DNA from: a virus
Lineage: Duplodnaviria; Heunggongvirae; Uroviricota; Caudoviricetes
Reading direction: 5' to 3' (one strand)
Length of the DNA stretch: 64,000 bases
Virus record (IMG/VR): IMGVR_UViG_3300035547_000249
The translations under genes and the position numbers were made by a program. Each line of letters begins with the position of its first letter. Position 1 is the stretch's first letter. This document shows, piece by piece, positions 30,102 through 57,484 of the stretch. The notes beneath the pieces were generated by a model. The model had not been told where the DNA came from, made no database searches, and was given only the letters and a program-made list of their open reading frames with translations.

Positions 30102-30500
30102 ATGACAAATAAGTTTTTTGTTTATGGCACTCTGAAGGTTGGAGGAAGATTTTCTCATTATTTTAATAATGTTAGAAAAAATGTTTCAAAGGCAAAAGTA
30201 AAAGGATTTGATCTATATGAAGTAGCTAATGGATCATCTGGATTTCCTGGAATAGTAAAAGGTGATGGCACAGTAATTGGAGAGGTACATGAGTTTGGTA
30301 ATGATGTCTTAGAAGACATCGTAGATGCCATGGATCAAATAGAGGGCTGCGACCCAAGATATCCTGAAAGAGGATTATATAGAAGAGAAATTGCCAAAGT
30401 TGAATTAGAAAATGGAGAAGAAATTGATGCTAATATCTACATCTATAATGGTGTAACTTATAAAGCATCAAAAATAAAAAACGGAAACTGGGAAATATAA
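30102..30500 (+). CDS. gamma-glutamyl cyclotransferase-like (AIG2/GGCT fold) protein
   Basis: N-terminal …FFVYGTLKVGG… signature; start taken at ATG 30102 after AAGGAG. The tracked ORF begins at an upstream TTG. Confidence 0.6.
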   Translation: MTNKFFVYGTLKVGGRFSHYFNNVRKNVSKAKVKGFDLYEVANGSSGFPGIVKGDGTVIGEVHEFGNDVLEDIVDAMDQIEGCDPRYPERGLYRREIAKVELENGEEIDANIYIYNGVTYKASKIKNGNWEI

Positions 30501-30532
30501 CAAATATAATAATAGTTCTAGGAGGAAGTAAA

Positions 30533-32164
30533 ATGAAATACAACAAACACATAAATTTAAGAAGTACACCTCAAACAGAACCGATCTTAGGAAAAAATAT
30601 GAAGCCCAATAACTCTGGTGGTTATGGGTTTGAAATTACCGATAAAATGACATTGGATCGTTTTCTAATATTGGGAACCGAAGGCGGAACATACTATGTT
30701 GGAGAAAGAAAATTAACAGTTGACAGTGTAAAAAGTGTCATTAAGTTAATCAAAGAAGACGGTCAGTATGTAGTAGACAGGGTTGTAGAAATATCAAGTC
30801 AAGGAAGAGCTGCGAAGAATGGTCCTGCTTTATTCGTACTATCCTTATGTACAGCACCAAGTTTCGCAGATGTCGATACTAGGAAAAAAGCATTTGATTG
30901 CTTACCAAAAGTAGCTAGAATTCCAACCCATCTTTTCGAATTCTTAGAATATATGAAATCATTCAGGGGTTGGGGTAGAATGGCTAAAAATGGAATTCAA
31001 AACTGGTATCAAAGTAAACCTGTAAAACAATTAGAATTCCATATGGTAAAATACAGACAAAGAGACGGATGGACGCATAACGATGTCTTGAGGCTGGCCA
31101 AACCAATCCCTGTAGACATTGAGCACGATATGTTGTATGAATTCGCAAAAAAGGATAGAATTGACAGAGAAAACAACTTCAAATTAATTGAAGGTTATAT
31201 AAAAGCTAAAGAAGCCAAAACAGAAAAAGAAGTAGTTTCATTAATTAATGAATATAATATTCCGATTGAAACAATTCCTACTCAATTCAAGAACTCTAAA
31301 ATGGTATGGGAGGCAATGTTACCAAATCTTCCAATAACAGCAACTATTAGAAATCTAAAAAATATGGCTGTTTATGGATTGTTAAAACCGTTCAGTGACT
31401 CTTCTAAAATGGTAGCTGACAAAATTAGCAATAAAGAAGTCATAGAAAAAGGAAGAGTACATCCAATTCAGTTTTTGAATGCAATTATGACGTATCCTAA
31501 AGGAAGAGATAGAATTTTCCAAGGCGCGTTTGGTGCATTTGCGAACAAAAACAACAAACCATTAGAATGGGTAGTGGATAAAGATATTGTAGAAGCTTTA
31601 AACGCAGGGTTTTACCATGGATTCAGAAATGTAATTCCATCCAATAAAAGAATACTGGTTGCATTAGATGTTTCTGGTAGTATGGGATGGCAGCCGTGTT
31701 TGGGGATGAAAACAGTTAATCCAAGAGAAGCATCAGCAGCCTTGGCATTAACAACAGTGAACACGGAGCCTAATCACCTTATAGGGGTATTTACCAGAGA
31801 GTTTGAGCAATTCAATGGTATAAAGCAAGGTATGGATATAAATTCTGCTATTAAAACAATATCAAATTTAAAGTTTGGTTCAACTGACATATCATCGCCA
31901 ATTCATTGGTTAGAAAAACACAAAATAGAGGTAGATGCTATAGTGTGTTATACTGACAATGAAACTTATTGGAAACAAAGTGACCATCCGTGTCAAGCTT
32001 TAAGCAAATACAGACAAAAATTTGGCTTAAACACCAAACTGGTATCTGTATCAATGTGTGCAAATAAAACAACTGTTGCAGATCCTGAAGACCCAAATAT
32101 GTTGGATATAGTGGGTTTTGATACTGCTACACCAAAAGCCATTTCAGAATTCTTAAATATGTAG
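30533..32164 (+). CDS. rsr: Ro60/Rsr orthologue (TROVE domain + vWA domain)
   Basis: …DRFLILGTEGGTYYVGERKLT… and …GRAAKNGPALFVLSLC… parallel Ro60 TROVE motifs. C-terminal …ILVALDVSGSMGW… is a vWA MIDAS motif. RBS GGAGG. Confidence 0.75.
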   Translation: MKYNKHINLRSTPQTEPILGKNMKPNNSGGYGFEITDKMTLDRFLILGTEGGTYYVGERKLTVDSVKSVIKLIKEDGQYVVDRVVEISSQGRAAKNGPALFVLSLCTAPSFADVDTRKKAFDCLPKVARIPTHLFEFLEYMKSFRGWGRMAKNGIQNWYQSKPVKQLEFHMVKYRQRDGWTHNDVLRLAKPIPVDIEHDMLYEFAKKDRIDRENNFKLIEGYIKAKEAKTEKEVVSLINEYNIPIETIPTQFKNSKMVWEAMLPNLPITATIRNLKNMAVYGLLKPFSDSSKMVADKISNKEVIEKGRVHPIQFLNAIMTYPKGRDRIFQGAFGAFANKNNKPLEWVVDKDIVEALNAGFYHGFRNVIPSNKRILVALDVSGSMGWQPCLGMKTVNPREASAALALTTVNTEPNHLIGVFTREFEQFNGIKQGMDINSAIKTISNLKFGSTDISSPIHWLEKHKIEVDAIVCYTDNETYWKQSDHPCQALSKYRQKFGLNTKLVSVSMCANKTTVADPEDPNMLDIVGFDTATPKAISEFLNM

Positions 32165-32371
32165 GTGGAGAAAATGACAATTAAAATTACCAAAAGCGGT
32201 ATGACAAAAACAGATGTATTAAAATCGTTAACACTAGGCATTCAACAACTATCATTCGAAGGAAAAGATTCAGAAACATATGTAGCTGAAACAAAACAGA
32301 CAAAGGATGGCATTGTTGTAGAATGTGTAGATGGTACCGTGATAGAATTGGAATTGAAAAAACTTGAATAA
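32165..32371 (+). CDS. hypothetical small protein
   Basis: RBS GGTGGAGAA; ORF only. Confidence 0.4.
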   Translation: MEKMTIKITKSGMTKTDVLKSLTLGIQQLSFEGKDSETYVAETKQTKDGIVVECVDGTVIELELKKLE

Positions 32372-32390
32372 TTGATATTATGATTGGTAT

Positions 32391-32412: not shown

Positions 32413-32431
32413 TACCAAAAAGGGCAGAATA

Positions 32432-32869: not shown

Positions 32870-34044
32870 TTGTACCTTCAATAATGAGTGTAATGGCTGA
32901 TTCACTAAATATTGATGATTTATATATTAAATTGAGTAGAAACGACAATTTAATTGTAAACAACGCATGGCTGGTGGGGGATAATGGATCTTTATTCATA
33001 ACTAGAAAACCAGAAGCAAACCCCATCGATTCTATAGCAGATGAATGCAGTATGATGATGATATCAGAAGATAACGTCGGTAATATAAATATAATAGCTA
33101 AATCCATGGATAGGATGTATGAATTTGGCGGAGAATTCAGCTCAATCAACATCATAAATCATTCAAATCCTGTTATGGTAGAAGAATGGCTGCCAGGAAA
33201 ATGTGCAATGTGTTACATTGTTGAAGATGTTACATATGTATCAACTAAAGACAGTGTATATGGCAATGAAGAGATAGGAGAAAACAAACGTTCTATTAGT
33301 TCATTGGTATCGAGTAAGCTAACTTCAAACAAAAACCTGAAGTATCAAAACATGAAGTCAGCATTAAAAAACCAATCTCTAATATTGAATATAACACCAA
33401 ACAATGATAGTTCTGACTTTGATATCTATTTAATAGATGTTATTGATATGGACGATTTTTCATCAGTAACAGATATTAGATTGAAGATTATAGCCAAAGA
33501 GTTAGGATTAAAAACACCTAACAAAATAGTTATAAAAAGCGAAAATAGATTGACAAAGGCGATAGGTGATCTGATATATAGAAACCCATCCATAAAAGGT
33601 GTAATATTAAAAAATAAATTTGGAGAAAGAGATAAGATATCCATAAAGGGGTATGATGTCTCTAGCTACATTACACCGTTTTCTAAGAAATATATAAGTA
33701 CAGCTATAAACTGTATCATGAAAGAAGTTTATTTTGGAATAGATAATGAGCTGACAACACTGCTTAGAAAATCTGTAAAAGAAATTGAATTAGAGGCACA
33801 AAGTAAATATGATTCTGTGAGAGGAATTAAGTTAAAAAGACACTTTTATCATAGAATAAAAGATTTTCCAGCCCCATATCTATTAATATGGATGAGGGAA
33901 AACAGTGTAAATAACGTAAGTGAAGCTCTAAAGAATGTAGATGCCTCTAAAGTAATAAAACATATTATGAAAATTAAAAAAGAAGAAATAACAAAAGCTG
34001 TTAATATATTGGAAAGGAGAAGTGATGAGTCTAAGAAAAGTTGA
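32866..34044 (+). CDS. hypothetical protein (392 aa)
   Basis: RBS GGGGG; ORF only. Confidence 0.5.
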   Translation: MIVPSIMSVMADSLNIDDLYIKLSRNDNLIVNNAWLVGDNGSLFITRKPEANPIDSIADECSMMMISEDNVGNINIIAKSMDRMYEFGGEFSSINIINHSNPVMVEEWLPGKCAMCYIVEDVTYVSTKDSVYGNEEIGENKRSISSLVSSKLTSNKNLKYQNMKSALKNQSLILNITPNNDSSDFDIYLIDVIDMDDFSSVTDIRLKIIAKELGLKTPNKIVIKSENRLTKAIGDLIYRNPSIKGVILKNKFGERDKISIKGYDVSSYITPFSKKYISTAINCIMKEVYFGIDNELTTLLRKSVKEIELEAQSKYDSVRGIKLKRHFYHRIKDFPAPYLLIWMRENSVNNVSEALKNVDASKVIKHIMKIKKEEITKAVNILERRSDESKKS

Positions 34045-34816
34045 ATGGTTAAAAAGTACATCACCTTTATCAGAAATCTATCAAGATGTAGCTATGAAGT
34101 TTTCATTGGCTAATGAGATAGATGGTAGAATAAAACAATGTCATCCATGGGTAAAATGTAGAGATTTCATCCATGATGTTATAAGAGGAAGTTTAACAAA
34201 AAGTACTGTATCTATTTATGGCCTGAAATATGTTCCAAGTAAGCATCCTGAGGTTAGTGTAGAAAAATCCATGATGTTAATTACTATGGACGGTATTGAA
34301 CCTATTGGTTTCAGGAAAAAACTAAACAGTGCGATGATGATGATAAATAGATATGAGAATTTGGTTGGACAAAATTTAAGCAAATTGTCCAAGGTTGCTG
34401 GAAGTAACACTTATAAACATGTATGGCTTTTCTCAGGGCCAAAGATGTGGATTGCACAACCTCACATGATATCACTATTAACCCTTTTATTCAGGCTTCC
34501 GATTGAGTTTGGAAAGGAAAAATATTCTAATAGAAGCAATGAAGAAATATTTAACAGTATCGTAAAAAATAACGAGGGGCTTAAAGACACTAACAACCTT
34601 AAATATATTAAGGCAATAAAAAGCAGAGTAGAAAATGTTGTAAAACACATTAACATGTTTCCAGTGGATGAAAAAGGAATGTCAACTGCATATAAAGACG
34701 CAAACATCAATTTAGGATCATTTCATGATAGACTTGGAATAGTCAGTGTTTGTTCAATGTGTTCAGGAAGTGAAAAAATTAACGAAGTGGTTAACGAAAT
34801 AAATAAGGAGAAGTAA
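34022..34816 (+). CDS. hypothetical protein, paralogue of the next gene
   Basis: Shared segments …HVWLFSGPKMWIAQPHMISLLTLLFR… versus …CFLLTGSKNWMAAPQLISMVGLIMR…. Confidence 0.5.
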   Translation: MMSLRKVEWLKSTSPLSEIYQDVAMKFSLANEIDGRIKQCHPWVKCRDFIHDVIRGSLTKSTVSIYGLKYVPSKHPEVSVEKSMMLITMDGIEPIGFRKKLNSAMMMINRYENLVGQNLSKLSKVAGSNTYKHVWLFSGPKMWIAQPHMISLLTLLFRLPIEFGKEKYSNRSNEEIFNSIVKNNEGLKDTNNLKYIKAIKSRVENVVKHINMFPVDEKGMSTAYKDANINLGSFHDRLGIVSVCSMCSGSEKINEVVNEINKEK

Positions 34817-34819: not shown

Positions 34820-35608
34820 ATGACCAAAAAATTAATTAGATTAAAACCAGCTTCAGAATATGCAGATTCTGCTGGATACAACATGTCATTTGGAATGGCA
34901 GGAGAAAACACAGGCACAATTAAAGATAGTTATAAGTACAGACAACTTATAACCAGCCTCACTACATGTAGAGAATCGCTTGTACACTCACTTAGAAATG
35001 CTATGCTTGCTAACGATGAAAGTAGAAAGCCAGATGTAAACAACTTAAGGCTTGTGATGGCTTTTAGTTCAAAAGACAACGATCATATAAAAGAAATAAT
35101 TTTCTATGCCAAGCAAGCATTAAATATGATGGAAACGAAGGTTGGGTGGGAAAATTCTGTAATAACAACAGCTAAATACATTGGAAATGACAATATTACT
35201 TGTTTTTTACTGACAGGAAGTAAGAATTGGATGGCTGCTCCCCAATTAATTTCCATGGTGGGATTGATAATGAGATCTATATATCTTTATATTAAAAGTG
35301 AAGACAGGGGTCAATTGGAGGTAGAGCTAAATAATATAGAAGATGTAAGAGCCTTGTTTAATAAAATTGCAAAAGGAGACGAAAGAGACGCAGAGTATAT
35401 TGGAATCTGTAGAAAGCATTTTTACAATATAATGGAAAATTACAATAAAATCTTTGAAGAAGGACCAGATTTTTTCTTTGATATTAATAGAAAAGATGCG
35501 GACAGAAAAGTATACAACTATAATTCTGGATATGGTGGAATTGCCTCATTTTGTCAGAATTCCAGCGGTAGTCTTTTAGAAAAAAGATTCTCAATGTTTG
35601 TTAAATAG
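34820..35608 (+). CDS. hypothetical protein, paralogue of the previous gene
   Basis: See previous entry; RBS AAGGAGAAG. Confidence 0.5.
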   Translation: MTKKLIRLKPASEYADSAGYNMSFGMAGENTGTIKDSYKYRQLITSLTTCRESLVHSLRNAMLANDESRKPDVNNLRLVMAFSSKDNDHIKEIIFYAKQALNMMETKVGWENSVITTAKYIGNDNITCFLLTGSKNWMAAPQLISMVGLIMRSIYLYIKSEDRGQLEVELNNIEDVRALFNKIAKGDERDAEYIGICRKHFYNIMENYNKIFEEGPDFFFDINRKDADRKVYNYNSGYGGIASFCQNSSGSLLEKRFSMFVK

Positions 35609-35619: not shown

Positions 35620-36549
35620 ATGTCAAAAAGAAAAATCATGATTGGAACAGATCCTGAGTATTTTATGGCTAGACGAGATTCTAAAAAATTGGTATCAGCC
35701 ATTCCGTTTATAAAAGGCGGTAAACATGACCCGATTAAATTACCGTCAGGAGCAAGCCTTCAATCAGATAATGTTGCAGTAGAATTTGCAACCCAACCTG
35801 CAAATGACAGCAAAGATTTCATTAATAAACTTAAGACGGCGTTGACAGAAACATATAAGTCAATTCCAGCAGGATACGATCTTATTGCTACACCGTCAGC
35901 CAAGTTTGATCCAGAAGAGCTAAAAGATCCCAAAGCATGTGAATTTGGATGTATGCCTGACTATTGTGCTTGGGAGATGAAAGTGAATGAACCTCCGATG
36001 CATGAAGATGCAACATTTAGATCCTGCGGTGGTCATATCCATGTAGGTTGTCTTGATGAAAATGGAGAATTAATTAGCGAAGACACTTCTTTCCTTCTGG
36101 AAGTAGAAGGAAAAGTAAAAATGGTAAAGGGAATGGATCTTTTCCATGGTATTATTTCTACAGTATTGGACAGTTCTCCTGAAGCTGTAGAAAGAAGAAC
36201 TCTTTATGGAAAGGCTGGATGCCATAGACCTACTGAATATGGCGTTGAATACAGAGCTCTAAGCAACTATTGGACTAAAACACCTTATTCTTCTATGCTT
36301 ATGTCAAGCCTGACAGATGATGTTATAGATGTAATTTTGACTGGAGAACTTGATGGGTTGATCGAAGAAGTTGGTTCCGAAGACATTAGAAGGATTATTA
36401 ACACAGGTAATGTCGAAGACGCCAAAGCAGTGATTGAAAAAGTTTTGTATAAATTTATGAGTAAAGACTCTAAATTTTATTTTGATGAGTGTATAGAAAA
36501 ACTTAACAAAGCAACAGACATGGCCAAAGAATGGTCAATTTCTATTTAA
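35620..36549 (+). CDS. amidoligase (glutamine-synthetase/GCS2-fold carboxylate-amine ligase), paralogue 1
   Basis: N-terminal strand …IGTDPEYFM… (G-x-D/E-x-E-x-F), a central …GGHIHVG… and a C-terminal …GVEYRAL… (E-x-R). This parallels the GCS2/YbdK motifs GxExE, HVHVG and E…R. RBS AGGAGA. Confidence 0.55.
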   Translation: MSKRKIMIGTDPEYFMARRDSKKLVSAIPFIKGGKHDPIKLPSGASLQSDNVAVEFATQPANDSKDFINKLKTALTETYKSIPAGYDLIATPSAKFDPEELKDPKACEFGCMPDYCAWEMKVNEPPMHEDATFRSCGGHIHVGCLDENGELISEDTSFLLEVEGKVKMVKGMDLFHGIISTVLDSSPEAVERRTLYGKAGCHRPTEYGVEYRALSNYWTKTPYSSMLMSSLTDDVIDVILTGELDGLIEEVGSEDIRRIINTGNVEDAKAVIEKVLYKFMSKDSKFYFDECIEKLNKATDMAKEWSISI

Positions 36550-36568: not shown

Positions 36569-37465
36569 ATGAATATTGCAGTTCCCACAAACAACGTAGC
36601 AGATAATACAGAAACGCCCAAAAGATCTCAGAACGCAGCATATTGTAAATATTTAAAGGCTGCCGGTCTGAACCCAATCCTTATTCCTATGGAAGCGGAT
36701 ACCAAAGATGTGGCCAAGATTTGTGACGGCTTACTGTTGGCAGGTGGGATTGATATTGATCCCATTTATTATGGTGTAAGTAATTCAATGTCAATGTCAG
36801 TAGACCCTGAAAAAGATGCTCATGAAAGACACCTGTTTCACAGTTTCAGAATGCTGAAGAAACCTGTGTTTGGTATTTGCAGAGGATTTCAGTTGATTGC
36901 AAGAGAGCTACTCTTCTATAATAAAGATGTAAATAGGTATATCTTCTACATGGAGAATATTGAAAGACATACACAAACTGGAGGGCTTAATGTTCCGAGA
37001 AGATTTCCCTCTCATATGGTGAAGTCAAACACAGGTTCATTGTACAGCGGTAAAGATGACAAGGATTTTACCATTCATCCGGTGAACAGTATGCATCATC
37101 AGGCTGTGTGTTTTATGTTTAATAAACTGGCAAAAGATGCAATTCAGGAAGAATACAAAAAGAAAGATTTCGATAAAGGAGAGCCTTCCGTAAGCAGATT
37201 TAAAATTGGAAAACTCGATATTGATATCGTTTCATGGACTATGAGGGGAGTTAAATATCCCAGCAATGTGTCCAAAGAGGCTCAATGGGCGATCGTAGAA
37301 GGAATTAAAATCGGTAATTGGGGCTCTAGTATTATGGGGGTCCAATGGCACCCAGAAGAAATGATGGACGTCTCTTTGGTGAGAAATTTCTTTGAAAACA
37401 ACAAAACAAAACCAAAGAATGATGAAAAGGTGAAACAAAATGAGAATGTCGCTGGAAACGGATGA
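36569..37465 (+). CDS. class-I glutamine amidotransferase-like / gamma-glutamyl hydrolase (peptidase C26) family protein
   Basis: Nucleophile elbow …GICRGFQL… and …VQWHPE… (His of the triad). RBS AAGGAG. Confidence 0.6.
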   Translation: MNIAVPTNNVADNTETPKRSQNAAYCKYLKAAGLNPILIPMEADTKDVAKICDGLLLAGGIDIDPIYYGVSNSMSMSVDPEKDAHERHLFHSFRMLKKPVFGICRGFQLIARELLFYNKDVNRYIFYMENIERHTQTGGLNVPRRFPSHMVKSNTGSLYSGKDDKDFTIHPVNSMHHQAVCFMFNKLAKDAIQEEYKKKDFDKGEPSVSRFKIGKLDIDIVSWTMRGVKYPSNVSKEAQWAIVEGIKIGNWGSSIMGVQWHPEEMMDVSLVRNFFENNKTKPKNDEKVKQNENVAGNG

Positions 37466-37667: not shown

Positions 37668-37680
37668 AATGGAGATTAAA

Positions 37681-51703: not shown

Positions 51704-52543
51704 ATGTGTGGAATTTTTGGAATAGCTGTTTTCGAACACAGCGAAGTTAGGGCTACTGTTCTTAGAGTAATTCTAAGATCTTTAGCCCTAAAGAATGAGA
51801 TAAGAGGTACAAATTCAACTGGTTATGCTTTTACATCCAAAGAAGGGGTAAAAATTTTTAAGTCCCCAGACAAAGCATCTGATTTTGTTAAGATTTCAAA
51901 CTATAGAAAAACATTCAGAGATATGGTAAAATCGGAGTTTGGTAATCCTTACTCAGTAATTGGTCATACAAGACAACAGACTAAGGGCAGTTATCTGATA
52001 AATGTAAATAATCATCCCATTAAGGCTGGATCAATTGTGGGAGTTCACAACGGATATATATCAAACGATGATGAAATATTCGAGTGGTTAAAAACAAAAC
52101 AAGACTATTATAGGAAAAGGGCAGGGCAGGTAGACAGTGAGGCCATTTTCGCTTTAGTAGACTATTTATCCAAAACATCACGTTTCGACAAAGAAGGTTT
52201 TGGATTAAATAAGAACAAATGTGATAACCCAACAACAACAGCTATTATTGATGCAGCTGATAAAATAACAGGCAGTTATGCTTATGCGATGGTAGACTCT
52301 TGCAATGCTAAAATGCTATGGCTTGTGAGAAACCAAGGCCCTATCTCAATTAATTATTACAAAAAAGAAGGTATACTAATATTTTCTTCTATAGCTAGCC
52401 ATATCGAAGAATCTACCAGCATAGCTGGCTTCTCTGACCCAGAGGAAATTAGTTTAGACCCTTTATCAGTAATGAGTGTGAACATAAAAGAGTGTTCATA
52501 TAATATTGATAAATTAGAAAAGAATGTTAATCAAATAAGATAA
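51704..52543 (+). CDS. class-II (Ntn) glutamine amidotransferase, N-terminal Cys nucleophile (MCGIFG…)
   Basis: Met-Cys-Gly-Ile start, …HTRQQTKG… and …NHPI…GVHNGYISN… fit the GATase-2 pattern. RBS AAGGAGA. Confidence 0.6.
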   Translation: MCGIFGIAVFEHSEVRATVLRVILRSLALKNEIRGTNSTGYAFTSKEGVKIFKSPDKASDFVKISNYRKTFRDMVKSEFGNPYSVIGHTRQQTKGSYLINVNNHPIKAGSIVGVHNGYISNDDEIFEWLKTKQDYYRKRAGQVDSEAIFALVDYLSKTSRFDKEGFGLNKNKCDNPTTTAIIDAADKITGSYAYAMVDSCNAKMLWLVRNQGPISINYYKKEGILIFSSIASHIEESTSIAGFSDPEEISLDPLSVMSVNIKECSYNIDKLEKNVNQIR

Positions 52544-52609
52544 TGTGTGGGTGTTGGTATAAGATATACTTACAAAAATCCAATCTTAACACTAGGAGAT
52601 AAATAAAAA

Positions 52610-54565
52610 ATGTGTGGAATTATCGGTGTCTTAAATTATGGAAGTAATGAGGATGAAAACAGAGAATCAGCTCTATATCTTACATCCACTTTAGTAGAAT
52701 TTACAGAACCTCGTGGAAAAGACGCTACAGGGGTAGCAGCTCTTTTTGATGATGGTAACTTTGTCTGCCAAAAAGGTGCAATTAGTGCATCAAAGTTTGT
52801 TGCAAGGTTCGGAAAAGAACCTACAGACTTTAACGGTTTCTTATCTGTGCTTAGACTAAGAGAAGAACCACTTAGAACAGTAATTGGCCATTGCAGAAAG
52901 AAGTCTGTTGGCAGATCGGCCAATAATGCAAACAATCATCCAATTAAAGCTGGAAATATTGTTGGTGTTCATAACGGTACTTTAAAGAACGACGATATCA
53001 TCTTCGAAAAGCTAAAGTGCGCTAGGGACGGACAAGTTGATAGCGAAGCTATTTTCAGATTGTTCGATCATTACACCAAAAATGGTAAAGAACCTTTTAC
53101 CATGGAAATGGTAGAAGAAGTCATAAAAAGGCTTGAAGGCTCATTTAGTATTCTTACATTTAATGCCAACAATCCTAACCAAGTTATTGCGGCAAGGGAT
53201 CAGAGGCCGGCAGAATTTTGCTTTATTAAGCCCCTAAAGCTTATGTTGGTAGCATCAGAAAAGAAGTTTATTGAAAATTCAATTTGGAACTACAATAAAC
53301 TTGCGTATCATTTTAACATGAATGGGTTTATTCAGCTTAAATATGGAGACGTAGAATACTCTACGTTAAAAGATGACGGGGCTGCAATATTTTACTTAAA
53401 TAGAGAGATCAAAGAAGATACAAAAATAGAAGATCTCTATGAAGCCAAAGATATGCCAAAATCTGTAAATAGAATCTGGAAAACTCCAGTTCAAACATAC
53501 AACTATGGTAATACTTACGGCAATAATTATAGACAAAACAATTATGCAAACAGAAACAACACAAACACCACACAAACAAATGTGAATTCGAACGTTAATA
53601 CAAATAAAACCAATGTGAGCACTGATAAAAAAGAAGATTCGAATGATAAAGCTCCCACTGATTTTGTTGGAAGAGTTTGGAGTGCAACTATCCATAAATT
53701 TGTGAAAACTCAAAGCCCTGCTAGACCTGTACTTAATGTTGGAAAAAGCCATACTGTAGTAGATACCGAAAAAAAAGTAATTATGTCGTTGTCTGAGGCT
53801 GCAAAGGAGAATGAGGAAGACAATATTGTAACCACAGAAAATTTTTCTGATATTGACGAAACAAATTTAGAAGATAAATACAAAGAACTGACTGTATCAG
53901 GAAAGTCGGTGGAAAATTGTAAAGATAGTTGTTTCGTTCCAATTTCTTCTATAGAGGCCGTAAGATCAAATAACAGCAAAGTAACAGAAGAAAAAGAAGA
54001 GAGGGAAGAAGAAAATATCCTGCCAAAAAAAGGACAAAACGTACTTTTATTAGAGCATATAAAAAAAGGAGCAAAAAAGGGCAAAGACACTATGTCGGAT
54101 GAGATGAATTTACACAAAGAGTCTAATGAGGCTCTATCTGAATTTGAAAAATTTGAGACAGCAGATGAAGTAGCTGAGTTGTGTAACACAGACAGAAATA
54201 GTTTGGAATCTTTACCTGTCCAATTTCTAGCTAATAGAGTAGTTAGACATGTGTTCAATAAGATATTTGCACTTGGTTGGCTCTCTAAGAAAAAAGATGT
54301 GTATGATTCTGGCATAAACAGCCATAAATACATTATTGCACTGAAAAACGTAGCTTATGCTCTTGATAAGCTAATAGAACATAGATCTGGAGCTCCAATT
54401 GATCACAATGATGTTAAGAAAGTGATAAATGAACTAGGTATATGTAATAAAACAGAAATGGAGCATATTAGTTCGTTATTCAGTAAGGGTGATTTATTAA
54501 ACAATAAAAACATAAAACATATAGTAAATCATTATATTCAAAGCGTCTCAGAAAATGAACGTTAG
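52610..54565 (+). CDS. class-II (Ntn) glutamine amidotransferase domain (MCGIIG…) plus a roughly 400-aa low-complexity/unknown C-terminal extension
   Basis: N-terminal 250 aa parallels the previous gene (…NHPIKAGNIVGVHNGTLKND…). Its 28-nt leader, including the RBS, is identical to that of 51704. Confidence 0.55.
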   Translation: MCGIIGVLNYGSNEDENRESALYLTSTLVEFTEPRGKDATGVAALFDDGNFVCQKGAISASKFVARFGKEPTDFNGFLSVLRLREEPLRTVIGHCRKKSVGRSANNANNHPIKAGNIVGVHNGTLKNDDIIFEKLKCARDGQVDSEAIFRLFDHYTKNGKEPFTMEMVEEVIKRLEGSFSILTFNANNPNQVIAARDQRPAEFCFIKPLKLMLVASEKKFIENSIWNYNKLAYHFNMNGFIQLKYGDVEYSTLKDDGAAIFYLNREIKEDTKIEDLYEAKDMPKSVNRIWKTPVQTYNYGNTYGNNYRQNNYANRNNTNTTQTNVNSNVNTNKTNVSTDKKEDSNDKAPTDFVGRVWSATIHKFVKTQSPARPVLNVGKSHTVVDTEKKVIMSLSEAAKENEEDNIVTTENFSDIDETNLEDKYKELTVSGKSVENCKDSCFVPISSIEAVRSNNSKVTEEKEEREEENILPKKGQNVLLLEHIKKGAKKGKDTMSDEMNLHKESNEALSEFEKFETADEVAELCNTDRNSLESLPVQFLANRVVRHVFNKIFALGWLSKKKDVYDSGINSHKYIIALKNVAYALDKLIEHRSGAPIDHNDVKKVINELGICNKTEMEHISSLFSKGDLLNNKNIKHIVNHYIQSVSENER

Positions 54566-54610
54566 AATGGTGGAAATTAATTGCTAAAATTTAGGAGATG
54601 ATCTACCAAA

Positions 54611-55897
54611 ATGGGAAAATTGTTATTAGTTGTGTCTGATAAAATGGACACGAACAAAAAACCTGATCGGGAGGAAAATATCTTGATCAGGTTGCCGAAA
54701 AAAGCGAGAGAAAGTGTAAATCTCCCTTTAATAAATCTGGGTGTAGGTAAACCAAGATTAAAGGTGTTTGAAGCTTTCTCTCAAGATATAAAATCTGTAA
54801 TTAACAAAGGTATTTGTGACAAAGAAACCATTGGCAACGTAGCTTTTGTTACATCAACTACTTTTAAGAAAGTATTTCCTAATTCTAACGACACATTTGG
54901 GGAAATAAATTACCTTAAAACAACAGATACAGATGAAGTAAATATAACAATAGGTGCCGATCCTGAATTTTTGTTATTTAACGATGAAGGAAATGTCATA
55001 AGAGCAAACAATATTATGGCCAAAGGCGGAAAAATAGGCTCTGATGGAGCAATGGCTGAAGTTAGACCAGATCCATCAGATGACCCTGTCGTGGTATCAA
55101 ATAATATATCAGATATCTTCTCCAATACAGAGCTAATTAAGCCAATTGAAAACTTTATCTGGAAAGCTTCTGTATATTTTAAGGATGTTCAAAGAGACTA
55201 TCCAGTTGGAGGACACATACATCTTGGAAACACTCAATTTGTTGATGGTATTCCTATGCCTACCAGAAACATTTTGTTTTCTACAATGAATAAAATTCTT
55301 GATGAACTTTTGGCGCTTCCTATGATTAAGATAGACGGTAAAGATGAGGGGAAGAACAGAAGGTCAAATTGTCAAATGGCGTTGGGAAATCAGGGCTATG
55401 GATATTATGGAGAATGGAGAATGTGTTCTGGCAGATTAGAGCATAGAACTCTTAGCGGCTTGTGGTTAATGCATCCAACGATTGCGTCTGGTGTATTAGC
55501 AGCTGCAAAAACTATAACAGAGGAGGCTCATAGATTTCTTCTTAGTGGTGGTTATAATCCTAAATTATTTACACACCGCGAGGTTAATACCAAGAATTAC
55601 AGGATTATGTATAACGATGAGTTTGATGGTTGGTCATCAATACCATTGGCCAAAGAAATGGGATGCATTAAATCATCTTCATACATGAAAAACGTACTTA
55701 ATAACTCTACATCTTCATCCATAAATGCCAAATTTTTAAAGAGTTGGTATAACAAGATGAAAAACATGGCTGGTTATAAAAAGTACCCTGATCAGATAGA
55801 TGCTTTACATGAAATATTGTCTATGCCCAGAAAAGAAGTAGTCAAGGTTGGTATGGATATTAAGGAAAACTGGTTAAACAAAAAAGAATTATTATAA
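54611..55897 (+). CDS. amidoligase (GS/GCS2-fold), paralogue 4
   Basis: …ITIGADPEFLLF…, …GGHIHLG…, …RLEHRTLSGLW…. Confidence 0.55.
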   Translation: MGKLLLVVSDKMDTNKKPDREENILIRLPKKARESVNLPLINLGVGKPRLKVFEAFSQDIKSVINKGICDKETIGNVAFVTSTTFKKVFPNSNDTFGEINYLKTTDTDEVNITIGADPEFLLFNDEGNVIRANNIMAKGGKIGSDGAMAEVRPDPSDDPVVVSNNISDIFSNTELIKPIENFIWKASVYFKDVQRDYPVGGHIHLGNTQFVDGIPMPTRNILFSTMNKILDELLALPMIKIDGKDEGKNRRSNCQMALGNQGYGYYGEWRMCSGRLEHRTLSGLWLMHPTIASGVLAAAKTITEEAHRFLLSGGYNPKLFTHREVNTKNYRIMYNDEFDGWSSIPLAKEMGCIKSSSYMKNVLNNSTSSSINAKFLKSWYNKMKNMAGYKKYPDQIDALHEILSMPRKEVVKVGMDIKENWLNKKELL

Positions 55898-55920
55898 CAC
55901 AACAAAAAGGAAATAAAAAG

Positions 55921-57054
55921 ATGAACAAAAAAGACATTTATATTTATTACAGCGGAGCAACTGACATCACCGGCCAAAAGCTTGTAGAAACATTAGGAGT
56001 AAATGGTGGAAAAACAGCACCCAAATCAGGTACCAAAATGGTTATTGGTTGGGGAGCTAAAACCAAGGATAAAACAAATTTCGTAAAATCTGTTACTGAG
56101 GTACTCAATCATCCTGATGCAATCAGGGACAATAGGAATAAGCTTAAGTCAAGCCAAATCATGCTTGAAAAAATTGGAGACAAACATGTGGCTAAGATCG
56201 TTGAAGCCAAGGACGTGTTAGCTAATTTGTCAAGTAAATCAATCAGCCTTCCTCTTATCGGAAGAACAAAATATCATCAAGGCGGAAAAGGCTTCTGGAG
56301 CTGTCCTACCATTGTTCAGGTAAATGAAGCAATTAATTCAGGCGCTAATTACTTTCAAGAAATTGTACCTGTCAGAGATGAATACAGACTTCATGTTTTT
56401 TGCGGCGAGGTAATTCATGCTGTTAAGAAAGTTAAAAGAACTGATGCTGAATTCGAAAAAGCATTCATCGAGGACGAACTTGCTAGACAGAAGTCATTGT
56501 CTTCTAAGAATGGCGATGCGTTTGATGAAGACACTGCAATCAGGTTTCTTAAAAGACAGGCCAAAAGTGCTACTGCTGGTGGAGCCAATATGCTACTCAG
56601 AAGCAATCGTCTTGGATGGAAGTTCTCAATCGTAAAGAAATACGATGATGGATTATCAAAAGTCGCTATCGATGCTGTGGAAGCCATTGGTCTTAATTTC
56701 GGTGCGGTTGACTGTTGTACTGATATTAATGGTAATCATGTTGTTTTTGAAGTTAACTCTGGACCTGGTCTTGAGGCCACTACGTTTGATAAGTATATTG
56801 AAGCATTTAAGGGCTACTTTGAGATACTAGAACTTAAAACTGTAAGCAAAACAGCAACTGCTCAGAAGAATGGTGGTCTTATTAAAAAGACAGAAAAAGA
56901 AAACAAAACTGTTGATAAAGATAAGAAAGTAAGTGAAAAAGAATTCATGAAAATACAAATTTCAAGATTTCAGGACATTTTGGAAGAAACATCTGATGAA
57001 AATATTGAGATTGTCAAGAGACTTGGTAACAAACTCATCTTTGGCGGCCAATAG
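55921..57054 (+). CDS. ATP-grasp ligase (RimK/glutathione-synthetase-like)
   Basis: C-terminal …GLNFGAVDCCTDINGNHVVFEVNSGPGLE… ATP-grasp signature; …YHQGGKGF… glycine-rich loop. Confidence 0.65.
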   Translation: MNKKDIYIYYSGATDITGQKLVETLGVNGGKTAPKSGTKMVIGWGAKTKDKTNFVKSVTEVLNHPDAIRDNRNKLKSSQIMLEKIGDKHVAKIVEAKDVLANLSSKSISLPLIGRTKYHQGGKGFWSCPTIVQVNEAINSGANYFQEIVPVRDEYRLHVFCGEVIHAVKKVKRTDAEFEKAFIEDELARQKSLSSKNGDAFDEDTAIRFLKRQAKSATAGGANMLLRSNRLGWKFSIVKKYDDGLSKVAIDAVEAIGLNFGAVDCCTDINGNHVVFEVNSGPGLEATTFDKYIEAFKGYFEILELKTVSKTATAQKNGGLIKKTEKENKTVDKDKKVSEKEFMKIQISRFQDILEETSDENIEIVKRLGNKLIFGGQ

Positions 57055-57484
57055 AAACAACAAGTTTAACATAGCATTGGGTAGCTGTACTATAGCCAAT
57101 CAAATAGCACAGTTACTCAATCAAAACAACAAATTAAATATCATACACAGTGATAGGTCAATAATAAGTAACAACGTTAAGTATTTTGTAGAATTCAATG
57201 GTAAACAAATAATAGGTTGTGTGGGATTAATAGACTTCCATACTATTGATAAAATAGTTCATTTAAGTGTAGACAGTAAGTTTAGAAATATGGGGATAGG
57301 AAATGAATTATTAAAAACTGCTGTCAATAAATCTGATAAATTAGAATTGTTTATGCAAATAAGATCAGATAATCAAAGCAGTATGAAATTATCTATTAAA
57401 AACGGATTTATGCCCATAGCCTATATTCCAAAGAAGTTCTATAATATAATAACACTACATTTTGATAGGAGAAAAAATGTTTGA
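56996..57484 (+). CDS. GNAT-family acetyltransferase
   Basis: …IIGCVGLID… and …FRNMGIGNELL… (motif A, R/Q-x-x-G-x-G/A). The start is uncertain: the tracked ATG overlaps the upstream gene by 58 nt. Confidence 0.5.
   Translation: MKILRLSRDLVTNSSLAANRNNKFNIALGSCTIANQIAQLLNQNNKLNIIHSDRSIISNNVKYFVEFNGKQIIGCVGLIDFHTIDKIVHLSVDSKFRNMGIGNELLKTAVNKSDKLELFMQIRSDNQSSMKLSIKNGFMPIAYIPKKFYNIITLHFDRRKNV

What the first reader, a model, noticed from the sequence alone, without database searches (positions are those of the whole stretch)
30102..57484. Very large phage cluster of amide-bond-forming enzymes: four amidoligases, two GAT-II, two GAT-I/C26, two ATP-grasp ligases, a GGCT and a GNAT
Between about 30 kb and 57 kb, with one more ATP-grasp at 62.5 kb, the window encodes:
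- four paralogous GS/GCS2-fold carboxylate-amine ligases (35620, 48805, 49964, 54611; shared G-x-[DE]-x-E-x-F, H-x-H-x-G and E-x-R motifs);
- two Ntn (Cys1) class-II glutamine amidotransferases (51704, 52610);
- two class-I GATase / gamma-glutamyl-hydrolase-like proteins (36569, 38769);
- two RimK-like ATP-grasp ligases (55921, 62509);
- a gamma-glutamylcyclotransferase-like protein (30102);
- a GNAT acetyltransferase (56996).

Earlier comparative-genomics work (Iyer, Aravind and colleagues, 2009) noted the co-occurrence of amidoligase, GAT-II, GGCT and ATP-grasp in a few phages. It proposed synthesis of peptide-like metabolites or peptide tags on proteins. The multiplicity here (4+2+2+2) is far beyond that minimal set and suggests a multi-step pathway building an oligo-gamma-glutamyl or peptide-like adduct.

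The target could be a small metabolite, the C-terminus of a protein (RimK and tubulin-tyrosine-ligase paradigm), a cell-wall precursor, or a nucleic-acid base (the phage thymidine hypermodification paradigm). All of these are hypotheses.
Basis: partly seen in the sequence, partly recalled or inferred. Interest (0 to 1): 0.92.

Follow-up and report, generated by a model that had tools for sequence, protein, structure and literature searches.

The report
Expanded amidoligase gene cassette, jumbo phage
An uncultured giant phage carries a doubled, elaborated version of a widespread phage enzyme set that makes and breaks glutamate-type amide bonds; the target has been unknown since 2009, and new domain fusions here hint that it is a protein or another macromolecule.

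Summary

The set is not one block. Sub-cluster A spans 34.0-39.4 kb and sub-cluster B 48.8-58.2 kb; a GGACT gene (30.1 kb) and a second ATP-grasp gene (62.5 kb) lie outside both.

The four ligases are not four close paralogues:
- g35620 is the orthologue of the classical small phage COOH-NH2 ligase, found in 316 cultured-phage records.
- g49964 is a divergent Amidoligase_2-like enzyme with a 115-residue cysteine-rich insert.
- g48805 and g54611 are paralogues that each carry an N-terminal CDC48/VAT-N-like double-psi barrel.

Five of the 12 enzymes (two Ntn GAT-II, two C26, one GGACT) break gamma-glutamyl or glutamine amide bonds rather than form them.

Sub-cluster B is syntenic in all 15 full-length related loci examined. 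Sub-cluster A is syntenic in all three related loci examined. These come from uncultured phage contigs of up to about 330 kb.

This is an expanded variant of the cassette predicted by Iyer and colleagues in 2009. No experimental function was found in the literature searched.

My best reading is a writer/eraser system for glutamate-based modifications on a macromolecule, probably protein. The target is not shown.

The parts
30051..30500 (+). GGACT / AIG2-like gamma-glutamyl(amine) cyclotransferase. The likely true start is ATG 30102.
   Evidence: Pfam GGACT 1e-20; YGTL motif present. The orthologue lies between the two C26 genes in L005 and L009 and next to Ro60 in L004. Weakly similar to the GGCT of PaP3 and CW02.
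34022..34816 (+). Conserved protein of unknown function; first of a paralogous pair directly upstream of the small ligase.
   Evidence: Paralogue of g34820 (25% identity, 3e-8). Orthologues hold the same position in L004, L005 and L009. No Pfam, PHROG or PDB match.
34820..35608 (+). Second member of the unknown paralogous pair.
   Evidence: PaP3, 7-11 and cr108_1 also have two ~300-aa unknown genes at this position, but no homology to them was detectable.
35620..36549 (+). Small COOH-NH2 ligase (GS/GCS2 superfamily); orthologue of the classical phage cassette ligase.
   Evidence: PF14395 5e-10; PHROG 3815 2e-59. tblastn finds 316 phage records at 32-38% identity. 742 metagenomic homologues.
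36569..37465 (+). Class-I GATase / Peptidase_C26-type Cys-His-Glu amidohydrolase, first copy; adjacent to the small ligase.
   Evidence: Peptidase_C26 2e-29. Best NCBIfam hit is gamma-Glu-GABA hydrolase PuuD, below its cut-off. Its gene overlaps the ligase gene in L005 and L009.
37440..37667 (+). Small conserved-position ORF (75 aa), function unknown.
   Evidence: ORFs at the same position in L004, L005 and L009 are poorly conserved and share no C-terminal motif.
37669..38421 (+). Pol-beta / CCA-adding-type nucleotidyltransferase head domain embedded in sub-cluster A.
   Evidence: Pfam PolyA_pol 8.6e-4, below cut-off; GGAVRD...GDID motif. Orthologues are the N-terminal domains of 422-aa and 740-aa proteins in L005 and L009 (tblastn 9e-23 and 4e-21).
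38414..38752 (+). Small ORF (112 aa), function unknown.
   Evidence: Orthologues in L004 and L005; C-termini not conserved.
38769..39425 (+). Class-I GATase / Peptidase_C26-type amidohydrolase, second copy; orthologue of the ~210-aa GATase of the canonical cassette.
   Evidence: Peptidase_C26 2e-23. 33-34% identical to cr108_1 gp031 and CW02 gp2. Best NCBIfam hit is gamma-glutamyl-CDP-amidate hydrolase, below cut-off.
48805..49989 (+). COOH-NH2 ligase with an N-terminal double-psi beta-barrel (DPBB) domain.
   Evidence: PF14395 1.7e-21 at residues 101-289. Paralogue of g54611 from residue 12 onward. Its N-terminal domain hits CDC48_N at E 0.009.
49964..51688 (+). Divergent Amidoligase_2-like GS-fold ligase with a ~115-residue Cys-rich insert (residues ~46-160, 15 invariant Cys) and a C-terminal winged-helix-like domain.
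51704..52543 (+). Stand-alone Ntn (Cys1) class-II glutamine amidotransferase-type amidohydrolase.
   Evidence: GATase_6 4.5e-11. NCBIfam hits the GlmS N-domain at 3e-21 and EgtC at 3e-6. MCGI, HTRxxTxG, HNGxIxN and DSE motifs are visible in the sequence.
52610..54565 (+). Ntn GAT-II domain (residues 1-~280), low-complexity linker and C-terminal helical domain of unknown function.
   Evidence: GATase_6 5e-12. Paralogue of g51704 (33% identity, 2e-27). The C-terminal region has no Pfam hit. 618-647-aa orthologues occur in L001 and L008, and a 579-aa one in L003.
54611..55897 (+). COOH-NH2 ligase with an N-terminal CDC48/VAT-N-like DPBB domain and a C-terminal helical domain.
55921..57054 (+). 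RimK / R2K-like ATP-grasp ligase.
   Evidence: RimK 2.9e-5 and R2K_2 6.6e-4. PHROG 2599 1.6e-28. NCBIfam rimK_fam 3e-7, below cut-off. Similar to the ATP-grasp of PaP3, CW02 and 7-11.
56996..57484 (+). GNAT acyltransferase; its gene overlaps the end of the ATP-grasp gene.
   Evidence: Acetyltransf_1, _7 and _10. The overlap with the ATP-grasp gene is conserved in L001 and L003. Present in 13 of 15 related loci.
57462..58160 (+). Unknown protein at a conserved position after the GNAT gene.
   Evidence: Counterparts of 232-268 aa in L001, L003 and L008. No family hit.
62175..62516 (+). Acidic small protein whose gene overlaps the start of the second ATP-grasp gene.
   Evidence: Positional counterparts in L001 and L008 share a C-terminal RPFEQYV..GK motif. 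No family hit.
62509..63261 (+). Second, short ATP-grasp ligase (RimK / YheCD / Ddl-like).
   Evidence: ATPgrasp_YheCD 2e-7, ATP-grasp_3 and RimK. PHROG 2599 8e-13. rimK_fam 1.3e-8 and LysX 8e-5, both below cut-off. Orthologues in L001, L003, L008, L015 and L016.

Best explanation
The window comes from an uncultured jumbo phage. It carries an expanded, partly duplicated version of the 'phage amidoligase cassette'.

Shown:
- Six ATP-dependent carboxylate-amine ligases: four with the GS/GCS2 fold and two RimK-like ATP-grasp enzymes.
- One GNAT.
- Five enzymes that cleave glutamine or gamma-glutamyl amide bonds: two Cys1 Ntn GAT-II, two C26 Cys-His-Glu hydrolases and one GGACT.
- One CCA-type nucleotidyltransferase.
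- These genes lie in two co-directional, tightly packed sub-clusters set among transcription and replication genes. The order is conserved across a whole phage clade.

Inferred:
- Every characterised GS/GCS2-fold ligase (GS, GCL, YbdK, PuuA, GmaS, PafA) activates a glutamate gamma-carboxylate. RimK-type ATP-grasp enzymes add glutamate. GAT-II, C26 and GGACT enzymes all recognise a gamma-glutamyl or glutamine moiety. So the common currency of the system is glutamate-type, gamma-glutamyl amide bonds.
- The ligases 'write' glutamyl or gamma-glutamyl links, possibly short chains that are N-capped by the GNAT or amidated using glutamine-derived ammonia. The hydrolases and the cyclotransferase either supply ammonia to their adjacent ligase or 'erase' and trim gamma-glutamyl groups.
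- Two ligases carry a CDC48/VAT-N-type substrate-recognition barrel. A third carries a multi-cysteine module and a winged helix. I therefore think the substrate is a macromolecule, most likely host or phage protein(s) modified during early or middle infection, rather than a free metabolite.

The identity of the target and the exact linkage are not shown.
For: - Family and fold assignments.
- Catalytic residues are invariant in 34-36 homologues of two of the ligases. Glutamine-pocket motifs of GlmS-type GAT-II are visible in both Ntn proteins.
- Ligase and hydrolase genes sit next to each other, close or overlapping, in the jumbo clade and in the small phages: small ligase + C26; Amidoligase_2-like + GAT-II; GAT-II + DPBB-ligase.
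- GGACT sits between the two C26 genes in L005 and L009.
- All seven enzyme genes of sub-cluster B are present in at least 13 of the 15 full-length related loci; six of them are present in all 15.
- Macromolecule-binding modules: DPBB; winged helix and 15 invariant Cys. Phage 7-11's GAT-II carries CxxC zinc-ribbon repeats.
- The ATP-grasp enzymes are of the RimK/R2K type, predicted to modify proteins (PMC4431377), and one is paired with a GNAT.
- Cassette products are detected as early proteins in the phiEco32-like phage SU10 (PMC4281155).
Against: - No target was identified. No conserved small protein with a Pup-like or LysW-like C-terminus is present.
- All characterised stand-alone pairs of a GS-like ligase with a GATase-like hydrolase (PuuA/PuuD, IpuC/IpuF, AtdA1/AtdA2, EgtA/EgtC; my own knowledge) act on small molecules. 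GGACT and C26 enzymes are best known on small gamma-glutamyl compounds.
- ATP-grasp and C26 matches to named equivalogs are far below the curated cut-offs, so substrate specificity cannot be transferred from them.
Confidence: 0.35

Rival explanations
1. Small-molecule pathway. The ligases gamma-glutamylate a free amine (for example a polyamine, an amino acid or a biosynthetic intermediate). The gamma-glutamyl group acts as a handle or protecting group, and the C26, GAT-II and GGACT enzymes later remove it. This is what happens in the Puu, Ipu, Egt and butirosin pathways. The product would be a metabolite that helps the phage, for instance through polyamine handling for packaging about 300 kb of DNA, or as a signalling or inhibitory peptide-like compound.
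For: - All three known 'do/undo' enzyme pairings are present: GS-like + C26, GCS2-like + Ntn GAT-II, and ATP-grasp + GGCT.
- The best NCBIfam neighbours of the C26 proteins are gamma-Glu-GABA hydrolase and gamma-glutamyl-CDP-amidate hydrolase. The GAT-II proteins also hit EgtC.
- Four radical-SAM-like genes, a DUF1848 gene and a class II aldolase gene lie 15-25 kb upstream and could tailor an intermediate.
- The GAT-II pocket residues for a free alpha-amino and alpha-carboxyl group are kept.
Against: - No oxidase, dehydrogenase, aminotransferase or transporter lies inside either sub-cluster.
- Three ligases carry DPBB, winged-helix or Cys-rich modules, which are unusual for small-molecule ligases.
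- All NCBIfam scores are far below the equivalog cut-offs.
Confidence: 0.28
2. Peptidoglycan-precursor modification, the original prediction of Iyer et al. (2009) for the canonical cassette. The ligases would add or alter peptide linkages on the murein stem peptide (and amidate it) in the cytoplasm. The purpose would be to block superinfection or to prepare the wall for lysis.
For: - This is the published prediction for the orthologous cassette, as reported in PMC11945000 and PMC10580990.
- ATP-grasp, GNAT-fold and GATase enzymes all have precedents in murein synthesis (Ddl, FemX, GatD/MurT; my own knowledge).
- A lytic transglycosylase (SLT) gene lies a few genes upstream of sub-cluster A in L004, L005 and L009.
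- DPBB domains of expansin/RlpA type bind glycan.
Against: - Amidoligase and GATase genes are reported in viruses assigned to Poseidoniales archaea, which lack murein (PMC11706807), and in phages of hosts with very different walls.
- The ligases have no signal peptide or Mur-ligase domain.
- By sequence, the DPBB is closest to the AAA+ N-domain type.
- No experimental support was found after 16 years.
Confidence: 0.12
3. Nucleic-acid modification. The enzymes would build a glutamyl or peptidyl hypermodification on phage DNA bases, or on an RNA or tRNA end. The embedded CCA-type nucleotidyltransferase and the surrounding RNA-repair genes would take part.
For: - Lee et al. report amidoligase and amidotransferase genes co-occurring with thymidine-hypermodification genes in viral contigs (PMC8989533).
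- A CCA-type nucleotidyltransferase is embedded in sub-cluster A, and such enzymes also accompany the cassette in SU10 and CW02.
- Ro60, Rnl1, RlaP and a CCA-adding enzyme are encoded nearby.
- A winged helix and Cys-rich modules are present.
Against: - None of the roughly 60 window ORFs scanned with Pfam is a dUMP/dCMP hydroxymethylase, 5-hmU DNA kinase, glycosylase-fold transferase or TGT/DpdA.
- The complete 49-kb CW02 genome has the cassette but no annotated gene of those kinds.
- No tRNA or Rfam RNA is found in the window.
- Only about 20% of the genome is visible, so this is not excluded.
Confidence: 0.1
4. Glutamine-dependent amidation machines. Each ligase and its adjacent GATase form a two-subunit amidotransferase that converts a carboxylate into a carboxamide (R-COOH + ATP + Gln -> R-CONH2). 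Four ligases and four glutaminases would then neutralise up to four carboxylates on one substrate. This concerns the chemistry and is compatible with any of the targets above.
For: - The count is 1:1 (4 GS-like ligases, 4 GATases). Three ligase-GATase pairs are conserved as adjacent or overlapping genes, and the same pairing is seen in PaP3, 7-11 and cr108_1.
- Ammonia is the native nucleophile of glutamine synthetase itself (established knowledge).
- The glutamine-binding residues of GlmS-type GAT-II are conserved.
Against: - I know of no characterised GS-fold enzyme that receives channelled ammonia from a GATase subunit. The known GS-like/GATase-like pairs are ligase/hydrolase pairs.
- The C26 proteins score higher on Peptidase_C26 than on the generic GATase model.
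- GGACT has no role in this scheme.
Confidence: 0.1

Closest known systems
Canonical phage amidoligase cassette (Iyer et al. 2009): phiEco32, 7-11, PaP3/LUZ24 (Bruynoghevirus), Salinivibrio CW02, crAss-like cr108_1
   Same: - Same families: small COOH-NH2 ligase (orthologous, 33-38% identity), a second GS-like amidoligase, Ntn GAT-II, a ~210-aa class-I GATase (33-34% identity), a RimK-like ATP-grasp and a GGCT/GGACT.
- Two unknown ~300-aa genes lie just upstream of the small ligase.
- The cassette sits beside replication and transcription genes.
   Different: - Here the set is split into two sub-clusters and roughly doubled.
- It gains two DPBB-fused ligases that tblastn at E<=1e-5 does not find in any cultured phage, a second GAT-II, a second C26, a second ATP-grasp, a GNAT and an embedded nucleotidyltransferase.
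- The Amidoligase_2 counterpart has a Cys-rich insert and a winged helix and escapes Pfam.
Pupylation enzymes PafA/Dop (GS-fold protein ligase and deamidase)
   Different: - No Pup-like tag with a conserved C-terminal Gln or Glu.
- No proteasome or Mpa gene in the window.
- Similarity to YbdK and GCL is equal or higher, so this is resemblance at superfamily level only.
Gamma-glutamylation pathways for amines: PuuA/PuuD, IpuC/IpuF, EgtA/EgtC, BtrJ/BtrG
   Same: The same enzyme pairings occur: GS/GCS2-like ligase with a C26 or Ntn GAT-II hydrolase, and ATP-grasp with a GGCT-fold enzyme. The C26 and GAT-II proteins hit PuuD-type and EgtC-type models.
   Different: - Scores are far below the equivalog cut-offs.
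- No accompanying oxidases, dehydrogenases or carrier proteins.
- The setting is a phage, and the ligases carry macromolecule-binding domains.
RimK / R2K ATP-grasp protein glutamylases (with RimI/J/L-type GNATs)
   Same: The ATP-grasp enzymes fall in the RimK family neighbourhood. One overlaps a GNAT gene. R2K-type enzymes have been noted in phages and jumbo phages as probable protein modifiers (PMC4431377, PMC7824862).
   Different: Only the C-terminal nucleotide-binding part aligns. No ribosomal-protein link is shown. The PHROG name 'S6 glutaminyl transferase' is an annotation by homology, not a tested function.

Membership tests
Phage amidoligase cassette (Iyer et al. 2009 'peptidoglycan modification module') | Small PF14395 COOH-NH2 ligase orthologous to phiEco32/PaP3 | tested here: met
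   g35620: PHROG 3815 2e-59; 316 phage records at 32-38% identity; 33% to PaP3 orf48 and 35% to cr108 gp032.
Phage amidoligase cassette (Iyer et al. 2009 'peptidoglycan modification module') | Second GS-like ligase of the Amidoligase_2 (PF12224) type next to an Ntn GAT-II | tested here: inconclusive
   g49964 lies next to GAT-II g51704 and has the GS fold. It does not hit PF12224. With the Cys-rich insert removed, hhalign gives E 8.9e-5 (probability 60%) with shared GxExE, DGSL..GME and RCSxHxH motifs.
Phage amidoligase cassette (Iyer et al. 2009 'peptidoglycan modification module') | Ntn (Cys1) GAT-II, ATP-grasp and GGCT-fold genes in the same neighbourhood | tested here: met
   Weak but specific similarity to the PaP3, CW02 and 7-11 counterparts.
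Phage amidoligase cassette (Iyer et al. 2009 'peptidoglycan modification module') | Acts on peptidoglycan | not testable with these tools
   This is a prediction only, known here through citing papers. The 2009 paper itself could not be read.
GS/GCS2 carboxylate-amine ligase superfamily (all four ligases) | GS-like catalytic fold with conserved metal- and ATP-binding Glu, His and Arg residues | tested here: met
Pupylation-like protein tagging | Small tag protein with a conserved C-terminal Gln/Glu (GGQ/GGE) encoded with the ligase | tested here: not met
   The small ORFs in and next to the clusters have non-conserved C-termini.
Pupylation-like protein tagging | Proteasome or Mpa-type unfoldase partner | tested here: not met
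   None among the Pfam-scanned ORFs of the window. The only AAA+ protein is RuvB-like.
Thymidine hypermodification pathway (5-HMUDK / aGPT-Pplase) | dUMP hydroxymethylase or TET/JBP, 5-hmU DNA kinase and aGPT-Pplase genes | tested here: not met
   No such Pfam hit in the ORFs scanned, and none annotated in the complete CW02 genome. Only ~64 kb of a ~310-kb genome is visible, and small ORFs between 1 and 28 kb were not scanned.
Puu-type gamma-glutamyl amine catabolism | GS-like ligase and C26 hydrolase together with an oxidase and an aldehyde dehydrogenase | tested here: not met
   The ligase + C26 pair is present. No oxidase or dehydrogenase lies in either sub-cluster. The PuuD model scores 37 bits against a cut-off of 266.
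RimK family alpha-L-glutamate ligases | Full-length match above the family cut-off | tested here: not met
   rimK_fam scores 30 and 35 bits against a cut-off of 143. Pfam RimK matches only ~50-60 residues. These are members of the ATP-grasp superfamily; the RimK-like subfamily is only suggested.
Two-subunit glutamine amidotransferase | Physical complex with an ammonia tunnel between glutaminase and synthetase | not testable with these tools
   Only conserved adjacency or overlap of the genes could be shown. No complex prediction was available.

The most novel reading that the evidence does not exclude
A virus-encoded post-translational conjugation system with writers and erasers. GS-fold ligases equipped with CDC48-N-type substrate-recognition barrels, together with RimK-like ATP-grasp enzymes and a GNAT, would install gamma-glutamyl, oligo-glutamyl or amidated tags on specific host or phage proteins. 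Candidate targets include the transcription, replication or translation machinery encoded or used next door. Ntn, C26 and GGACT enzymes would remove the tags. This would be a phage analogue of pupylation or polyglutamylation, and it would also explain the smaller cassette in LUZ24-, phiEco32- and crAss-like phages.
Probability: 0.25. Interest if true: 0.85.

Novelty: new variant of a known kind. Interest (0 to 1): 0.6.

Why it matters
The small-ligase cassette occurs in hundreds of cultured phages, including therapy candidates of the LUZ24/PaP3 group, phiEco32-like phages and a crAss-like gut phage. In the literature I could search, it still has no tested function, 16 years after it was predicted.

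The jumbo-phage version is conserved across a large uncultured clade: 238 representative clusters for one ligase, on contigs up to ~330 kb.

It adds information the small cassettes lack:
- It shows which components travel in pairs.
- It shows that bond breakers are as numerous as bond makers.
- It shows that three ligases are fused to macromolecule-binding modules.

These features turn an open question into specific experiments, for example pull-downs with the DPBB domain and open-search proteomics for Glu/Gln additions.

If the target is a protein, this would be a new class of viral host-takeover chemistry. If it is a metabolite or a nucleic acid, it would be a new biosynthetic pathway.

Tried and rejected
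- **Searches of cultured phages.** Megablast of 48-58 kb found nothing. tblastn of the RNA polymerase, g54611 and g49964 also found nothing. Only g35620 has cultured-phage relatives.
- **Single-protein scan of IMG/VR with g54611.** It found nothing. The alignment-based scan worked.
- **Sequence links for g49964.** Pfam at E<=10, PHROGs, a PDB profile search and hhalign against the g54611 family were all negative. An HMM of the family against PaP3, 7-11 and CW02 amidoligases was negative until the Cys-rich insert was removed. Insert-less ~430-aa relatives also lack any Pfam hit.
- **The paralogous unknown pair g34022/g34820.** No Pfam, PHROG or PDB match. No detectable homology to the positionally equivalent pairs in PaP3 or cr108_1.
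- **Search for a Pup-, ubiquitin- or LysW-like tag among the small ORFs.** C-termini are not conserved.
- **Host assignment.** GTDB hits are bins labelled Woesearchaeota, Muribaculaceae, Stahlbacteria and Patescibacteria, plus an Asgard MAG. These are mutually inconsistent and therefore mis-binned viral contigs.
- **Promoter and terminator scans.** Counts equal those of shuffled sequence, so they are uninformative.
- **Rfam and tRNA scans.** Empty.
- **Literature.** The Iyer 2009 paper is not in the library. Seven full-text searches found no functional study of the cassette.
- **Idea rejected: gamma-glutamyl-CDP-amidate (MeOPN-like) chemistry.** It was suggested by the NCBIfam hit and the adjacent nucleotidyltransferase. 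I dropped it because the score is 37 bits against a cut-off of 250, and the nucleotidyltransferase is of the pol-beta/CCA type, not the sugar-nucleotidyl type.

Full report
**Gene names.** Genes are named by their window start coordinate, so g35620 is the ORF starting at 35620.

**1. Observation**

From 28 to 64 kb the window is one array of co-directional + strand genes. Intergenic gaps are short or the genes overlap; the only large gap is 61348-62174. GC content is about 32%.

Every coordinate in the finding matches an ORF. Pfam results:
- GGACT at 30051/30102 (1e-20).
- PF14395 COOH-NH2_lig at 35620, 48805 and 54611.
- Peptidase_C26/GATase at 36569 and 38769.
- GATase_6/7, with the protein beginning Met-Cys, at 51704 and 52610.
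- ATP-grasp at 55921 and 62509.
- GNAT at 56996.

NCBIfam and PHROGs agree at family level, although all matches to named equivalogs are far below the curated cut-offs. The catalytic motifs can be read directly in the translations:
- GICRGFQ and WHPE in both C26 proteins.
- HTRxxTxG, HNGxIxN and DSE in both Ntn proteins. From my knowledge of GlmS, these form the glutamine pocket.
- RxxGxG in the GNAT.

**2. The fourth ligase, g49964**

The 574-residue protein g49964 matched nothing in Pfam (even at E<=10), PHROGs or PDB sequences. A profile comparison with the g54611 family was also negative.

It has 539 metagenomic homologues at 45-82% identity, none with a Pfam domain. In 36 of them, E37, E39, H225, H227, E353 and R355 are invariant, as are 15 cysteines between residues 50 and 136.

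After removing the Cys-rich insert, the family aligns with the Amidoligase_2 proteins of PaP3, 7-11 and CW02. The hhalign E-value is 8.9e-5 (probability 60%), through the motifs GxExE, DGSL..GME and RCSxHxH.

So g49964 is a GS-fold ligase. It is probably a very divergent counterpart of the cassette's second amidoligase. It belongs to a sequence family that current libraries do not model. That family has 238 representative clusters in the 1.84-billion-protein library, including insert-less ~430-aa forms that also lack Pfam hits.

**3. The ligases are three kinds, and two carry a new domain**

- g48805 and g54611 are paralogues over nearly their whole length (29% identity, 2e-27).
- g35620 is only distantly related to them.
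- g49964 is not related to them by sequence.

The g54611 model is confident (pLDDT 92). Its core again matches YbdK-like, GCL, PafA, Dop and GS structures.

Its first ~100 residues form a double-psi beta-barrel (DPBB):
- A sequence profile of this domain hits the designed DPBBs at 1e-4.
- The g48805 N-terminus hits Pfam CDC48_N at 0.009.

This DPBB-ligase type was not found in any cultured phage by tblastn at E<=1e-5.

**4. Anatomy**

Sub-cluster A, 34.0-39.4 kb:
- Two paralogous unknown ~263-aa proteins (3e-8).
- The small ligase.
- C26, first copy.
- A 75-aa ORF.
- A pol-beta/CCA-type nucleotidyltransferase head domain.
- A 112-aa ORF.
- C26, second copy.

Five unknown genes follow. Then come a 1092-aa protein with beta-like and beta'-like RNA polymerase domains, four small genes and a ResIII helicase.

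Sub-cluster B, 48.8-58.2 kb:
- DPBB-ligase g48805.
- The g49964 ligase.
- GAT-II g51704.
- GAT-II with a C-terminal domain, g52610.
- DPBB-ligase g54611.
- ATP-grasp g55921.
- GNAT g56996 (its gene overlaps the ATP-grasp gene).
- A conserved-position unknown, g57462.

After that come a RuvB-like ATPase, a sigma-70 region-2 protein and a CCA-adding enzyme. After an 828-nt gap come an acidic 113-aa protein and the second ATP-grasp.

**5. Relatives**

The three ligase families have 420 to 742 metagenomic homologues, on contigs up to 318-330 kb. IMG/VR lists relatives of 228-269 kb as viral genomes.

- In 15 full-length loci centred on a g49964 or g54611 homologue, the six genes g48805 to g55921 are always present and the GNAT is present in 13. 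Helicase and RuvB are present in all 15, sigma in 13 and the CCA enzyme in 11. Identity is 28-64%.
- In three loci centred on the small ligase, the unknown pair, the ligase, both C26 genes and GGACT are present. The nucleotidyltransferase is present in two of the three; it is absent from L004.
- L008 and L009 are parts of one 311.6-kb contig that has both sub-clusters in the same order as the window.
- In the two more distant relatives, GGACT lies between the two C26 genes. This ties it functionally to sub-cluster A. In the window and in L004 it sits 4-5 kb upstream, next to Ro60.
- Relatives carry one further ~300-aa gene between the two GAT-II genes. It is missing here.

**6. Relation to what is known**

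g35620 finds 316 records among 50,697 cultured or deposited phages. They include Pseudomonas Bruynoghevirus (PaP3, LUZ24-like), Escherichia phiEco32-like phages, Salmonella 7-11, Salinivibrio CW02, a Planctomycete phage and the crAss-like cr108_1.

Their neighbourhoods show a recurring cassette:
- Two unknown ~300-aa genes.
- The COOH-NH2 ligase.
- A ~200-aa gene, which is a class-I GATase in cr108_1 and CW02.
- An Amidoligase_2.
- An Ntn GAT-II with a C-terminal extension.
- An ATP-grasp.
- A GGCT.
- Replication genes next to the cassette.

Papers citing Iyer et al. (2009) call this a putative peptidoglycan-modification module or a superinfection device (PMC11945000, PMC10580990, PMC11706807). 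The 2009 paper itself was not available.

Seven full-text searches found no experimental function. The 2021 jumbo-phage survey mentions only R2K ATP-grasp enzymes (PMC7824862).

The window therefore holds orthologues or counterparts of every canonical component. On top of these it has a second C26, a second GAT-II, a second ATP-grasp, two DPBB-ligases, a GNAT and an embedded nucleotidyltransferase.

**7. How it most likely works**

Shown: the enzyme classes, their intact catalytic residues, their pairing and their conservation.

Established knowledge of the families:
- Every characterised GS/GCS2-fold ligase activates a glutamate gamma-carboxylate, free or at a protein C-terminus. It joins it to ammonia or an amine.
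- RimK-type ATP-grasp enzymes add glutamate.
- GAT-II, C26 and GGACT enzymes all act on a glutamine or gamma-glutamyl amide.

Inference: the common chemistry is glutamate-type amide bonds, with six ATP-dependent makers, one acyl-transferase and five breakers.

The conserved adjacency of ligase and hydrolase genes fits two schemes:
- Do/undo pairs, as in PuuA/PuuD, EgtA/EgtC and BtrJ/BtrG.
- Glutaminase/synthetase pairs that amidate carboxylates.

I cannot separate these two here.

For the target, the new evidence is the macromolecule-binding modules:
- CDC48-N-type barrels on two ligases.
- A winged helix and a 15-cysteine module on a third.
- CxxC zinc-ribbon repeats on the 7-11 GAT-II.

Other points that bear on the target:
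- The ATP-grasp/GNAT pair is of the RimK/R2K type.
- Cassette proteins are detected as early products in SU10.

I therefore favour a protein-directed writer/eraser system (confidence 0.35). The alternatives are:
- A small-molecule gamma-glutamyl pathway (0.28).
- Murein-precursor modification (0.12).
- Nucleic-acid modification (0.10).

Arguments against the alternatives:
- Against the murein idea: the genes are reported in viruses assigned to archaea without murein.
- Against the thymidine-hypermodification paradigm: no hallmark genes among the ORFs scanned, and none annotated in the complete CW02 genome.
- Against a Pup-like mechanism: no conserved tag protein.

**8. Verdict**

- There are three ligase families, not four paralogues.
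- There are two sub-clusters, not one block.
- Nearly half the enzymes are hydrolytic.

This is a new, elaborated variant of a known but functionally unsolved phage system. It is interesting for the clues it adds and for its breadth in uncultured jumbo phages, but it is not a categorically new kind of system.

Noticed in passing
window 11268-14951 (+), and 6323-7039 (+): Four consecutive radical-SAM-like ORFs: 11268-11975 (7.8e-9), 11927-12826 (4e-8, plus Fer4_12), 13393-14355 (5e-4) and 14304-14951 (6e-4); the last two are weak matches. A DUF1848 protein (1.7e-23) lies upstream. This is an unusual density of radical-SAM enzymes for a phage. No link to the amidoligase clusters was established.
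   Followed up: partly
window 19985-27368, 30533-32164, 59947-61347: A large RNA-repair and quality-control set: an RlaP nucleotidyltransferase, an Rnl1 RNA ligase, an HD + AAA_33 (kinase-like) protein, a Ro60/TROVE + vWA protein and a CCA-adding enzyme with an HD domain. ARAGORN finds no tRNA gene and Rfam finds no Y RNA or any other family in the 64 kb.
   Followed up: partly
window 42689-45967 (+) and 59139-59960 (+): A single 1092-aa protein has a beta-like domain (Rpb2_6, residues 299-438) and a beta'-like domain (Rpb1_2, residues 794-859). It looks like a fused two-barrel RNA polymerase. It is conserved at 39-56% identity in all relatives and has no tblastn match in cultured phages. A sigma-70 region-2 protein is encoded 13 kb downstream.
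   Followed up: partly
window 61348-62174: An 828-nt stretch without any ORF of 60 aa or more on the + strand. It is the only large gap in the 28-64 kb gene array. A terminator-like hairpin lies at 61398-61429, just after the CCA enzyme gene. No Rfam match.
   Followed up: no
P0244 and P0296; L012-L016: Contigs of this phage clade sit in public MAG bins labelled Candidatus Asgardarchaeum, Woesearchaeota, Muribaculaceae, Stahlbacteria and Patescibacteria. The labels are mutually inconsistent, so these are almost certainly mis-binned viral contigs. No host could be inferred.
   Followed up: partly
L001 7049-8017, L003 7413-8264, L008 7125-8054: Relatives carry an extra ~280-320-aa gene between the two GAT-II genes. 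The window lacks it and has only a 66-nt gap at 52544-52609. Two of the three proteins, and the extended nucleotidyltransferase of L005, end in Ser/Thr-rich tails.
   Followed up: partly
L004 825-1601, 10927-11670 and 20576-20930 (- strand): HNH endonuclease genes are inserted on the opposite strand between cluster genes in one relative. One of them lies between the small ligase and C26. This suggests homing-endonuclease traffic within an otherwise rigid gene order.
   Followed up: no
window 37669-38421; PMC4281155 (SU10 gp74); CW02 gp33 (L017 9467-10042): A CCA-type or generic nucleotidyltransferase accompanies the amidoligase cassette in three unrelated phage groups: embedded in sub-cluster A here, detected among early proteins of the phiEco32-like SU10, and annotated in CW02. 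This may be coincidence or a real association.
   Followed up: partly
L010 11164-13113 (Salmonella phage 7-11 gp102): The C-terminal half of the 649-aa GAT-II of phage 7-11 contains several CxxC...CxxC zinc-ribbon-like repeats. In the jumbo clade a Cys-rich module sits instead inside the neighbouring ligase (g49964). Cys-rich modules therefore recur in the cassette on different proteins.
   Followed up: no
window 5352-5810, 18519-19544, 29162-30037: CreA-family protein (7e-26), class II aldolase/adducin-domain protein (9e-9) and an SPFH/Band 7 membrane protein (8e-22). These are accessory genes of unclear role in a phage.
   Followed up: no
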